From positions 91,477 through 155,476 of the IMG/VR virus record IMGVR_UViG_3300010998_000001: 64,000 nt of DNA, one strand, 5' to 3'. This document shows, in pieces, positions 58,686 to 58,755 of the stretch (positions are counted from its first letter, which is position 1; each line of letters begins with the position of its first letter). Source of the stretch: a virus. Lineage: Duplodnaviria; Heunggongvirae; Uroviricota; Caudoviricetes. Both the position numbers and the translations under genes were made by a program. The notes under the pieces were generated by a model. That model did no database searches and had not been told where the DNA came from. It worked only from the letters and a program-made list of their open reading frames with translations.

Positions 58686-58755
58686 TCATACTAGCTTAAC
58701 GAAAAGCCTCTCTCTTCAAGGGAGAAGATCGACGGTTCAAGTCCGTTGGTATGGA
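58686..58755 (+). tRNA. Candidate tRNA with a UCA anticodon (opal-decoding; Trp, Sec or suppressor type); no CCA encoded
   Basis: Acceptor TCATACT/GGTATGG; anticodon stem-loop TCTCT-CTTCAAG-GGAGA; T-arm GACGG-TTCAAGT-CCGTT; short D-arm. Confidence 0.45.

What the first reader, a model, noticed from the sequence alone, without database searches (positions are those of the whole stretch)
58686..58755. Candidate phage tRNA with anticodon UCA (reads UGA) and no encoded CCA
A 70-nt cloverleaf has a 7-bp acceptor stem (two G-U pairs), the anticodon stem-loop TCTCT-CTTCAAG-GGAGA and the T-arm GACGG-TTCAAGT-CCGTT. Its D-arm is short and its 3' end is ...A-TAT rather than CCA, which fits the co-encoded CCA-adding enzyme. 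Genes in this window use TGA as a normal stop (for example at 23164, 23492, 23821 and 52840). A UGA-decoding tRNA would therefore be a suppressor, or a Trp tRNA for stop-codon-recoded late genes elsewhere in the genome, as seen in some phages with reassigned stops.
Basis: seen in the sequence. Interest (0 to 1): 0.6.

Follow-up and report, generated by a model that had tools for sequence, protein, structure and literature searches.

The report
Orphan UGA-reading tRNA in standard-code phage
A real but structurally odd tRNA gene with a stop-codon-reading (UCA) anticodon sits in the tRNA cluster of a large Lachnospiraceae phage, but every visible part of that phage uses TGA as a normal stop, so this is an isolated suppressor-type tRNA and not evidence of a changed genetic code.

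Summary
ARAGORN (58685..58756, anticodon tca), the Rfam tRNA model (58686..58755, 37.1 bits against a cut-off of 29) and an unconstrained RNAfold cloverleaf all find a tRNA with anticodon UCA and no encoded CCA.

The gene is atypical:
- The D-loop has 6 nt and no GG.
- C32 and G38 can pair.
- The acceptor/T junction is one nucleotide out of register (7/6 or 8/5 instead of 7/5).
- It is the only one of 16 tRNAs in the window without an encoded CCA.

It lies in a unit driven by a perfect consensus promoter. The surrounding island encodes a CCA-adding enzyme, a Thg1-like enzyme, an RlaP nucleotidyltransferase and a Ro60-like protein.

The genome is a circular SPbeta-like phage of about 155 kb from Lachnospiraceae. 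About 94 kb of it could be read. TGA ends 35-44% of ORFs, often in ATGA overlaps. The structural genes are 94% coding under code 11. No ORF is interrupted only by TGA, and backup stops are not enriched after TGA.

Syntenic relatives lack the tRNA, and no relative of its sequence was found. A second Ro60-like-bearing phage family has evolved its own UCA tRNA, also in a TGA-rich setting.

Verdict: a lineage-specific opal-suppressor-type tRNA, probably weak or decaying, and not part of a recoding system. It is a new member of a known kind and of modest interest.

The parts
58685..58756 (+). tRNA gene with anticodon UCA (opal-suppressor type), no encoded CCA. Rfam limits are 58686..58755.
   Evidence: ARAGORN; Rfam RF00005, 37.1 bits; RNAfold cloverleaf.
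58716..58718 (+). Anticodon TCA within the loop C-T-TCA-A-G (58714..58720). U33 and A37 are canonical. C32 and G38 can form a Watson-Crick pair.
   Evidence: Rfam alignment. In the RNAfold MFE structure the loop closes to 3 nt.
58694..58707 (+). D-arm GCTT-AACGAA-AAGC: 4-bp stem and 6-nt loop with a single G (no G18G19).
   Evidence: Sequence; Rfam alignment shows deletions in the D-loop.
58730..58748 (+). T-arm with canonical TTCAAGT loop. The stem is 5 bp, or 6 bp if C58730 pairs with G58748. This is the source of the acceptor/T register anomaly.
57887..57915 (+). Perfect sigma-70-type promoter (TTGACA-17-TATAAT with extended -10 TG) heading the unit that contains the tRNA-like RNA at 58036, tRNA-Gln, tRNA-Ser, the conserved element, tRNA(UCA) and tRNA-Lys. 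A twin promoter lies at 59028..59056, with no terminator between them.
   Evidence: sequence.
58757..58917 (+). Remainder of the lineage-specific 233-nt cassette (58685..58917). It replaces the conserved ~165 nt seen in relatives L071 and L193. It contains two T-arm-like hairpins but no detectable tRNA.
   Evidence: Alignments; relaxed ARAGORN and BLAST found nothing.
58440..58684 (+). Conserved structured non-coding element that ends exactly at the 5' end of the tRNA.
   Evidence: ~80% identity to L071, with 1-nt indels. 10 of 60 predicted pairs show compensatory double changes and none is broken by substitution. No Rfam match.
49157..50428 (+). CCA-adding enzyme (tRNA nucleotidyltransferase). 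It could supply the missing CCA.
   Evidence: PF01743 at 133.5 bits, PF12627, PF13735; phrog_2244.
50484..51284 (+). Thg1-like tRNA-His guanylyltransferase / 3'-5' polymerase.
   Evidence: PF04446 at 103.1 bits; phrog_4717.
48131..49156 (+). RlaP-type (RNA repair pathway) nucleotidyltransferase.
   Evidence: PF10127 at 66.6 bits; phrog_388.
60610..62121 (+). DUF2828/DUF7788 protein, Ro60-like by fold. It lies 1.85 kb downstream of the tRNA on the same strand.

Best explanation
This is a genuine, lineage-specific tRNA gene with anticodon UCA, carried in the tRNA and RNA-repair island of a circular SPbeta-like Lachnospiraceae phage of about 155 kb that uses the standard code. Shown: it is a tRNA by three independent methods. 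It lies in a strongly promoted tRNA transcription unit on the coding strand. It alone lacks an encoded CCA, and the phage encodes a CCA-adding enzyme. The visible 60% of the genome uses TGA as an ordinary, frequent stop. Inferred: it is transcribed with its neighbours, cut out by RNase P and RNase Z, given CCA by the phage or host enzyme, and charged by a host synthetase that tolerates U34 (TrpRS, CysRS or ArgRS are the near-cognate candidates, since C35 and A36 or C35 plus A20 are present). It then reads UGA with low efficiency. The non-canonical acceptor/T junction (a 13-bp stack, as in EF-Tu-averse tRNA-Sec), the GG-less D-loop and the C32-G38 pair should all weaken decoding. The outcome would be low-level readthrough that adds a median of about 8 residues, which the phage tolerates, and not a code change. 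It sits on a 233-nt replacement cassette that syntenic relatives lack, so it is a recent gain or a recently mutated tRNA and not a conserved part of the phage's biology.
For: - tRNA calls: ARAGORN, Rfam 37.1 bits against a cut-off of 29, cloverleaf as the MFE structure.
- Core invariants present: U8, A14, A21, U33, A37, G53-U54-U55-C56, A58, C61.
- Perfect 12/12 promoter at 57887..57915 and no terminator before the tRNA.
- CCA-adding enzyme present.
- TGA is a real stop: 51 of 123 ORFs, and 28 of 64 ORFs of at least 100 aa, with many ATGA overlaps. Flanking regions are the same.
- Structural genes are 94% coding under code 11. Protein lengths match homologues: tube 256 aa against 250-258, integrase 349 against 347-350.
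- No TGA-joined fusions.
- Median distance to the next in-frame stop after TGA is 8 codons.
- Absent from syntenic relatives L071 and L193, where a conserved segment occupies its place.
- The host lineage is Lachnospiraceae, which uses code 11.
- A second phage family with the Ro60-like gene made a UCA tRNA by point changes in an existing tRNA, while using TGA for 45% of stops. Suppressor-type tRNAs in TGA-rich standard-code phages of this host group therefore recur.
- Borges et al. report a TGA suppressor tRNA in a standard-code phage.
Against: - No direct evidence of expression, CCA addition, charging or decoding.
- It has the lowest Rfam score in the array and several departures from canonical tRNA geometry, any of which could abolish function.
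- No homologue was found, so there is no covariation or conservation evidence. All four copies seen are identical.
- Backup stops after TGA are not enriched (18% within 3 codons, against 15% after TAA), so the genome shows no adaptation to an active suppressor.
- An active opal suppressor would affect about 40% of the phage's own genes.
- 61 kb of the genome was not seen.
Confidence: 0.5

Rival explanations
1. It is a decaying or non-functional tRNA: a tRNA-derived sequence that still scores as a tRNA but no longer matures or decodes. The UCA anticodon would be an accident of drift.
For: - Lowest score among 16 tRNAs, and the only one without CCA and without the 'ATAT' leader the others share.
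- No GG in the D-loop, and an acceptor/T register shift.
- C32-G38 and U33-A37 let the anticodon loop close to 3 nt.
- The cassette around it contains two T-arm-like hairpins that look like tRNA remnants.
- Absent from relatives.
- The genome shows no adaptation to suppression.
Against: - All four stems are intact with at most one or two G-U pairs.
- The T-loop, U8, A14, A21, U33 and A37 are canonical.
- It still exceeds the Rfam gathering score.
- Three other tRNAs in this array that look functional score almost as low: Pro 37.2, Met 39.4, Tyr 39.8.
- Many Firmicute tRNA genes lack an encoded CCA (established knowledge).
Confidence: 0.25
2. It is a Trp (or other) tRNA that decodes in-frame TGA in late genes (lysis, tail) located in the unseen ~61 kb, as in code-4 'Agate'- or 'Jade'-type phages.
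For: - UCA anticodon.
- Recoding in known phages is concentrated in lysis and structural genes, while early genes stay in standard code.
- The tape-measure, baseplate and lysis region of this genome could not be fetched.
Against: - TGA is 35-44% of stops instead of being depleted.
- Thirteen structural ORFs next to the window are intact, and three of them end in TGA.
- The closest relative has an intact 2,168-aa tape-measure-like ORF and intact neighbours.
- No TrpRS or RF1 was seen among the ORFs annotated.
- The discriminator is A or U, not the G73 that bacterial TrpRS requires (established knowledge).
- Relatives with the same architecture lack the tRNA.
Confidence: 0.07
3. It is a tRNA-like RNA with a non-decoding role: a partner or substrate of the Ro60-like, Thg1-like and CCA-adding RNA quality-control module (as Y RNAs are), or a decoy for host anticodon nucleases.
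For: - The DUF2828 protein is Ro60-like by fold.
- Bacterial and phage Y RNAs carry tRNA-like modules, lie within 4 kb of Ro60 on the same strand, and can receive CCA after RNase P cleavage (Chen et al. 2014). Here the tRNA is 1.85 kb upstream on the same strand and lacks CCA.
- In a second phage family a tRNA sits 64 nt downstream of the Ro60-like gene and varies only in its anticodon loop, including C33.
- Phage tRNAs are known to vary their anticodon loops under pressure from nucleases (PMC10264068).
Against: - It has a complete anticodon arm with a canonical 7-nt loop. It lacks the 5'-3' Ro-binding stem with internal loop and the GNCGAAN0-1G motif.
- No Rfam Y-RNA-type match at E<=10.
- Relatives that keep the Ro60-like gene at 70-75% identity lack this tRNA. 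They do conserve the 58036 tRNA-like RNA and the 58440..58684 element, which are better Y-RNA candidates.
Confidence: 0.13

Closest known systems
Phage-encoded opal suppressor tRNAs (Sup-TCA) of gut and rumen phages (Borges et al., bioRxiv 10.1101/2021.08.26.457843; Cook et al. 2024, PMC11210395)
   Same: A phage tRNA with anticodon UCA, in a phage of a standard-code Firmicute host from an animal gut or rumen setting. Borges et al. also report one standard-code phage that carries a TGA suppressor.
   Different: Those tRNAs mostly accompany TGA-to-Trp recoding of late genes in TGA-depleted, low-GC genomes. Here TGA is one of the two main stop codons, no recoded gene is visible, and the tRNA has non-canonical geometry and no homologues.
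The UCA variant of the tRNA downstream of the Ro60-like (DUF2828) gene in ~80 kb human-gut phages
   Same: 72 nt, UCA anticodon, no encoded CCA, A/U-rich acceptor stem. It lies in a phage with the same Ro60-like gene and is surrounded by genes that use TGA for 45% of stops.
   Different: Unrelated in sequence. It has a canonical GG D-loop and a loop reading A-C-UCA-A-U (C33). It clearly derives from a sister tRNA with anticodon UGA by point changes, and it lies 64 nt downstream of the Ro60-like gene rather than 1.85 kb upstream.
Bacterial tRNA-Sec (selC)
   Same: UCA anticodon, loop CUUCAA, a possible 13-bp acceptor+T stack (8/5 or 7/6), and the ARAGORN label 'SeC'.
   Different: No long variable arm (the SerRS determinant), a 4-bp rather than 6-bp D stem, and no G73. 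The general tRNA model outscores the clan alternatives. No Sec machinery was seen.
YrlA-type bacterial and phage Y RNAs (Chen et al. 2014, PMC4201824; phage phiLo Yrl1/2, PMC12135203)
   Same: A tRNA-like RNA without an encoded CCA, near a Ro60-type gene and on the same strand.
   Different: Y RNAs replace the anticodon arm with a long 5'-3' stem that carries the Ro-binding site and a CGAA-type motif. This RNA is a plain cloverleaf and is not conserved together with the Ro60-like gene.

Membership tests
tRNA (Rfam RF00005) | Covariance-model score at or above the curated gathering score | tested here: met
   37.1 bits against 29; E=3.5e-4 for the whole window. ARAGORN agrees.
tRNA (Rfam RF00005) | Four-arm cloverleaf as a stable fold | tested here: met
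   RNAfold MFE and centroid structures are a cloverleaf, -22.3 kcal/mol, z=-2.6.
tRNA (Rfam RF00005) | Canonical geometry: 7-bp acceptor, 2-nt connector, 5-bp T stem directly abutting the acceptor stem, and G18G19 in the D-loop | tested here: not met
   Either there is one extra nucleotide at the T/acceptor junction (7/6) or the 8-9 connector has only one nucleotide. The D-loop AACGAA has a single G.
tRNA (Rfam RF00005) | 3' CCA, either encoded or added after transcription | not testable with these tools
   Not encoded (tail TATAG). A CCA-adding enzyme is encoded at 49157..50428. Actual addition needs RNA data.
Suppressor tRNA of a stop-codon-recoded (code 4) phage | Anticodon complementary to the reassigned stop (UCA for TGA) | tested here: met
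   Anticodon at 58716..58718.
Suppressor tRNA of a stop-codon-recoded (code 4) phage | Genes (typically structural or lysis) interrupted by in-frame TGA; coding density recovers under code 4 | tested here: not met
   No such genes in ~94 of 155 kb. Structural block is 94% coding under code 11. Same-frame pairs rejected. The gain in coding density from code 4 (0.82 to 0.86) is the same as in control loci. 61 kb was not seen.
Suppressor tRNA of a stop-codon-recoded (code 4) phage | Depletion of TGA as a terminator | tested here: not met
   TGA is 35-44% of stops, compared with 2.7% in the standard-code relative described by Borges et al..
Suppressor tRNA of a stop-codon-recoded (code 4) phage | Accessory code-change genes (TrpRS, RF1) in some members | tested here: inconclusive
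   None among about 40 ORFs scanned. Not all ORFs were scanned, and the genome is incomplete.
tRNA-Sec (selC) | Long variable arm, 6-bp D stem and G73 | tested here: not met
   Variable loop of 4-5 nt, D stem of 4 bp, discriminator A or U.
tRNA-Sec (selC) | 13-bp acceptor+T helix (8/5 in bacteria) | tested here: inconclusive
   58685-92 with 58748-55 can form 8 bp next to a 5-bp T stem, or 7/6 as in the MFE structure. With a single sequence there is no covariation to decide.
YrlA-type Y RNA | Encoded within ~4 kb of a Ro60 orthologue on the same strand | tested here: met
   [not shown]
YrlA-type Y RNA | 5'-3' stem with internal loop or bulge and a GNCGAAN0-1G / CGAA Ro-binding motif; the anticodon arm replaced | tested here: not met
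   Plain cloverleaf with a 7-nt anticodon loop. The D-loop reads AACGAAAAG, which does not fit the motif. No Rfam match.
YrlA-type Y RNA | Co-conservation with the Ro60 gene | tested here: not met
   L071 and L193 keep the Ro60-like gene (70% and 75% identity) but lack this RNA.

The most novel reading that the evidence does not exclude
Ro60-like-bearing Lachnospiraceae phages that keep TGA as a frequent stop have evolved UCA-anticodon tRNAs without encoded CCA at least twice, independently. This one has a tRNA-Sec-like 13-bp acceptor/T helix and sits among CCA-adding, Thg1-like and RlaP genes. The most novel reading still open is that these are deliberately attenuated UGA decoders whose activity is gated by the phage's own maturation enzymes (CCA addition, 5'-end editing). 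They would be used for timed, low-level global UGA readthrough, for example to disturb host RF2 autoregulation or host protein C-termini, and not for recoding phage genes.
Probability: 0.1. Interest if true: 0.7.

Novelty: new member of a known kind. Interest (0 to 1): 0.35.

Why it matters
Phage suppressor tRNAs are usually taken as markers of stop-codon recoding. Here the marker is present without the phenomenon: the phage terminates about 40% of its genes with TGA and still carries a promoter-driven UCA tRNA. A second, unrelated UCA tRNA appears in a sister phage family under the same conditions.

This has a practical consequence. Annotation pipelines should not switch a phage to code 4 because of a Sup-TCA call alone.

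It also raises a biological question: how are suppressor-type tRNAs tolerated, or used, before any recoding exists? This is the proposed first step in the evolution of recoding. The case is directly testable with the full contig, rumen metatranscriptomes and a UGA reporter.

Tried and rejected
1. Comparing total ORF coverage with each stop codon removed. This was uninformative, because removing any stop lengthens ORFs.
2. Exact and degenerate DNA patterns for the tRNA in IMG/VR: an exact 37-mer, CTTCAAG..GGTTCAAGTCC and D-arm plus T-loop. No homologue turned up. The second pattern returned a coding helicase-like motif and unrelated tRNA-Glu-like genes.
3. The single metagenome scan, using GGTGAAGGANGGCGAAAAC from the upstream element.
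4. BLAST searches against deposited phages: megablast of 57000..64000 and distant blastn of 58431..58917. No match.
5. A search for a paralogue among 200 collected phage tRNAs, and BLAST against 3.1 Mb of fetched loci. Nothing found.
6. Walking the genome with chimeric protein queries. This gave 10 kb more downstream (L196) and 3 kb more on the tail side (L195). Three further look-ups returned the same short contig, because near-identical neighbourhoods are collapsed. About 61 kb stays unseen.
7. Strain variation. L003 differs from the window only in a patch at 60396..60437, so it says nothing about selection on the tRNA.
8. An alternative anticodon register (UUC with C33). Rejected because it removes nucleotide 26 and neither program chooses it (note).
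9. The 9-nt direct repeat GTGCGCAAG flanking the tRNA, considered as a target-site duplication. Rejected, since it is within chance expectation for a 500-nt region.
10. Sequence search of the DUF2828 profile against PDB. No significant hit; only the fold comparison revealed the Ro60 similarity.

Full report
**1. The observation**

Three independent methods recognise a tRNA there:
- ARAGORN calls 58685..58756 (+) with anticodon tca. It labels the gene 'SeC' only because of that anticodon.
- The Rfam tRNA covariance model matches 58686..58755 at 37.1 bits against a gathering score of 29. The E-value is 3.5e-4 for the whole 64 kb window searched against all families, and 8e-6 locally.
- RNAfold, with no prior information, returns a cloverleaf as both the minimum-energy and the centroid structure: -22.3 kcal/mol, z=-2.6, equalled by 3 of 200 shuffles.

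The anticodon loop is C-U-UCA-A-G (58714..58720), with canonical U33 and A37. The T-loop UUCAAGU is canonical, as are G53:C61, U8, A14 and A21. This is more than chance would give, and the gene is on the + strand. The reverse complement has no T-loop.

**2. How the tRNA departs from the norm**

- The D-loop (AACGAA) has six nucleotides and a single G, so the G18G19 pair of contacts with the T-loop cannot both form.
- C32 and G38 can form a Watson-Crick pair. In the thermodynamic fold the anticodon loop closes to three nucleotides.
- The acceptor register is ambiguous. The complementary cores are 58686-91 and 58749-54. The ARAGORN and RNAfold version adds U58685-A58755, giving discriminator U58756 and keeping U8 and A9, with G58748 pairing to C58730 as a sixth T-stem pair. 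Using both extra pairs gives an 8/5 arrangement. Every version departs from the canonical 7/5, 12-bp stack, and two of them give a 13-bp stack like that of tRNA-Sec.
- It is the only one of the window's 16 Rfam-detected tRNAs without CCA directly after the discriminator. It also lacks the 'ATAT' leader that most of the others have. It has the lowest score of the 16, although Pro (37.2), Met (39.4) and Tyr (39.8) are close.

**3. The genome**

An exact-protein look-up placed the window on ENA contig ERZ3810914 NODE_10_length_155440. Window 53224..64000 is 100% identical to contig positions 1..10777. Window 1238..2104 maps to contig position ~104 kb. The window therefore spans the contig junction, and the genome is circular or terminally redundant with a period of about 155.4 kb (inference).

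Identical copies of the tRNA occur in JGI samples 3300011002 and 3300011006.

The gene content is SPbeta-like:
- a YonO/RdRP-like RNA polymerase at 10436..13180, 38% identical to Enterocloster phages and Clostridium phage c-st and 26% identical to SPbeta YonO;
- YonJ, YonG, YonD, YonB, YomX, YomV and YomU structural genes;
- a RecU gene and a YomM-like integrase after the tube gene.

Relatives of the DUF2828 gene in GTDB genomes are all in MAGs of the family Lachnospiraceae (Lachnospiraceae, Blautia, Acetatifactor), many from rumen. One further MAG is unnamed. The host is therefore a standard-code Clostridium-class bacterium.

**4. Is TGA recoded?**

- In a strand-consistent ORF set for the window, the stops are TAA 58, TGA 51 and TAG 14. 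For ORFs of at least 100 aa they are 31, 28 and 5. Many TGA stops lie in ATGA start/stop overlaps, which is typical of translational coupling.
- Outside the window, the 8 kb downstream has TGA 9, TAA 4 and TAG 2.
- The 10 kb of structural genes upstream is 94% coding under code 11, with TAA 10, TGA 3 and TAG 0.
- A further 10 kb downstream (DNA ligase, NMN transporter, methylase) is intact.
- Seven cases where a TGA is followed by a same-frame ORF were inspected. Four have further in-frame stops immediately after (two are tandem TGA-TAA). Two downstream ORFs have their own GGAGG-type ribosome-binding site. One apparent 'start' is the TTGACA of a promoter. Seven such cases among about 54 TGA-terminated ORFs is below the one-third expected by chance.
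- Protein lengths match homologues.
- In the closest relative (tube protein 85% identical), the genes beyond the integrase include an intact 2,168-aa tape-measure-like ORF.

For comparison, Borges et al. describe TGA depletion (2.7% of stops) in standard-code relatives of recoded phages, and recoding concentrated in structural and lysis genes. Cook et al. find Sup-TCA tRNAs in 11 of 73 phages predicted to use code 4.

Nothing here fits that pattern. About 61 kb (contig ~29.4-90.8 kb, probably tail, baseplate and lysis genes) could not be retrieved, so the exclusion is not complete.

**5. Does the genome show signs of an active suppressor?**

TGA-terminated ORFs are not enriched for nearby backup stops: 18% have one within three codons, against 15% for TAA-terminated ORFs. 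Readthrough would add a median of 8 codons. There is no adaptation to suppression, but a weak suppressor would also cost little.

**6. Context and conservation**

A perfect 12/12 promoter with an extended -10 TG lies at 57887..57915, and a twin lies at 59028..59056. No terminator lies between them. The first unit contains, in order:
- a conserved hairpin and a tRNA-like RNA with an expanded anticodon loop (58036..58111);
- tRNA-Gln and tRNA-Ser(UGA);
- a conserved element of about 245 nt;
- the UCA tRNA;
- 160 nt of unique sequence;
- tRNA-Lys.

The syntenic relative L071 (DUF2828 70% identical) has the same order, but ARAGORN and Rfam find no tRNA in its Ser-Lys gap. Its alignment with the window runs at about 80% identity up to the exact 5' end of the UCA tRNA and then breaks down. 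L193 (75% identical) shares with L071 a conserved ~165 nt where the window has the 233-nt segment 58685..58917.

The tRNA therefore sits on a lineage-specific replacement cassette. No relative of its sequence, with any anticodon, was found in 3.1 Mb of fetched loci, in IMG/VR pattern scans or in deposited phages. This leaves no covariation evidence, and strain variation is uninformative.

**7. A second, independent UCA tRNA**

Anchoring on the DUF2828 family in IMG/VR returned 80 loci, mostly ~80 kb human-gut phages. Fourteen of them carry a 72-nt tRNA(tca) 64 nt downstream of the gene, again without CCA.

This tRNA is unrelated in sequence to ours. It is the same tRNA body that other loci carry with the loop AUUGAAU (anticodon UGA) or ACUGAAU. 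A sister form carries AUUGUAA (UGU). The UCA version there arose by point changes confined to the anticodon loop. Those loci use TGA for 45% of stops, against 37-38% in sister loci.

Suppressor-type tRNAs in TGA-rich, standard-code phages of this host group are therefore recurrent.

**8. The surrounding RNA-handling genes and the Y-RNA rival**

The window encodes:
- an RlaP-type nucleotidyltransferase (48131..49156);
- a CCA-adding enzyme (49157..50428);
- a Thg1-like enzyme (50484..51284; PF04446, 103 bits);
- the DUF2828/DUF7788 protein (60610..62121).

Ro60 partners in bacteria and phages (YrlA-type Y RNAs) contain tRNA-like modules, lie within 4 kb on the same strand, and can be cut by RNase P and given CCA. 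I therefore considered that the 'tRNA' is a Y-like RNA. Three points argue against this:
- It is a plain cloverleaf with a full anticodon arm. It lacks the 5'-3' Ro-binding stem and the motif, and it has no Rfam match.
- It is absent from relatives that keep the Ro60-like gene.
- Those relatives do conserve the two neighbouring non-coding elements, with compensatory changes. Those elements are the better candidates.

**9. Conclusion**

The most likely account (confidence about 0.5) is a recently acquired or recently mutated tRNA gene of opal-suppressor type. It would be co-transcribed with the array and matured with CCA from the phage or host enzyme. It would decode UGA only weakly because of its non-canonical helix, D-loop and 32-38 pair, in a phage that keeps the standard code.

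The rivals are:
- a non-functional, decaying tRNA (0.25);
- a non-decoding tRNA-like RNA tied to the Ro60-like and repair module, or a decoy for nucleases (0.13);

The charging identity cannot be determined here. C35 and A36 with a U or A discriminator and A20 leave TrpRS, CysRS and ArgRS as near-cognate candidates. This rests on established identity rules and was not tested here.

It is a new member of a known kind, of modest interest. Its main value is as a caution against inferring code 4 from a Sup-TCA call, and as a possible snapshot of suppressor acquisition before any recoding.

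Noticed in passing
[not shown]
   Followed up: yes
window 58440..58684 (+); L071 8125..8571; L193 1..184: Conserved structured non-coding RNA between tRNA-Ser(UGA) and tRNA-Lys. It is about 420 nt in relatives, and only the 5' ~245 nt is kept in the window. 10 of 60 predicted pairs show compensatory double changes between two sequences, 1-nt indels rule out coding, there is an invariant GGUGAAGGANGGCGAAAAC stretch, and no Rfam family matches. It may be the Y-like partner of the Ro60-like protein.
   Followed up: partly
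window 57920..58111 (+); L071 ~7530..7760: After the promoter come a conserved leader, a long hairpin (~57970..58030) and a tRNA-like RNA (58036..58111; ARAGORN 'tRNA-???' with 4-nt anticodon gagt; not called by Rfam). The tRNA-like RNA has an 8-nt 'anticodon' loop, a canonical T-arm and a terminal GCCA. L071 conserves it with compensatory acceptor-stem changes and a 9-nt loop. This is another Y-RNA or tRNA-mimic candidate, 2.5 kb upstream of the Ro60-like gene.
   Followed up: partly
window 48131..51284 (+): A contiguous tRNA maturation and repair module: RlaP-type nucleotidyltransferase (48131..49156), CCA-adding enzyme (49157..50428) and Thg1-like tRNA-His guanylyltransferase / 3'-5' polymerase (50484..51284). 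No tRNA-His was seen in the visible arrays.
   Followed up: partly
IMG/VR loci L209-L288, e.g. L228 11507..11578, L274 6824..6895, L262 11509..11580, L276 11501..11572: In ~80 kb gut phages, the tRNA 64 nt downstream of the Ro60-like gene keeps an identical body but varies in the anticodon loop: AUUGAAU (UGA anticodon on a class I body), ACUGAAU, ACUCAAU (UCA, with C33). A sister form has AUUGUAA (UGU). Most have a U1-U72 mismatch and no CCA. This suggests diversifying change confined to the anticodon loop.
   Followed up: partly
window 57887..57915 and 59028..59056 (+): Two near-identical perfect promoters (AAAATAATGCTTGACAAA...GTCTGCTATAATA; 12/12 consensus, extended -10 TG) head successive tRNA blocks.
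   Followed up: partly
window 34346..34462 (+): SAM riboswitch (S-box, RF00162, 60.4 bits against 44.4) inside the phage genome. The ORFs downstream (34419..34829, 34902..35234) have no Pfam match.
   Followed up: partly
window 53419..55526 (+): A reverse transcriptase (RVT_1; phrog_1423) is translationally coupled to a SPASM / radical-SAM-like protein just upstream of the tRNA block. No DGR repeats were looked for.
   Followed up: no
window 59991..60078 (+): An 88-nt class II tRNA (anticodon region reads GCU, Ser) found by Rfam at 44.5 bits but missed by ARAGORN. It corresponds to tRNA-Ser(GCU) in L071 and L193.
   Followed up: partly
IMG/VR loci L045 9199..9276, L007 83..159, L024, L038, L039/L052; L013 8074..8146, L022, L026, L054: Phage tRNA-Glu-like genes whose anticodon loop reads CCUUCAA (C33 instead of U33), and ARAGORN 'tRNA-???(tc)' genes with irregular loops. 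In the L013 array the odd gene may be the only Glu tRNA.
   Followed up: no
window 60396..60437 vs L003: The only differences between two otherwise identical strains over 3.9 kb cluster in one ~40-nt replaced patch upstream of the Ro60-like gene.
   Followed up: no
window 42871..43830, 44910..45947 (+); L195 4801..5850: At least three tyrosine-recombinase (integrase) genes in one phage. The one after the tail-tube gene (YomM-like position) is 70-79% identical across many 150-170 kb phage contigs.
   Followed up: no
L001 16336..18898 / L196 8019..11116: A PAPS-reductase-like protein (563 aa) next to a class V aminotransferase / cysteine desulfurase (371 aa). This resembles a DndC/DndA-type sulfur-modification pair. 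In L002 the first gene is split into 417-aa and 140-aa ORFs.
   Followed up: no
phage records OP172753 and related: In several Enterocloster phages the YonO-like RNA polymerase matches in 2-3 pieces lying under 3-5 separately annotated 'hypothetical protein' genes. This suggests interruption by introns, inteins or frameshifts in those genomes.
   Followed up: no
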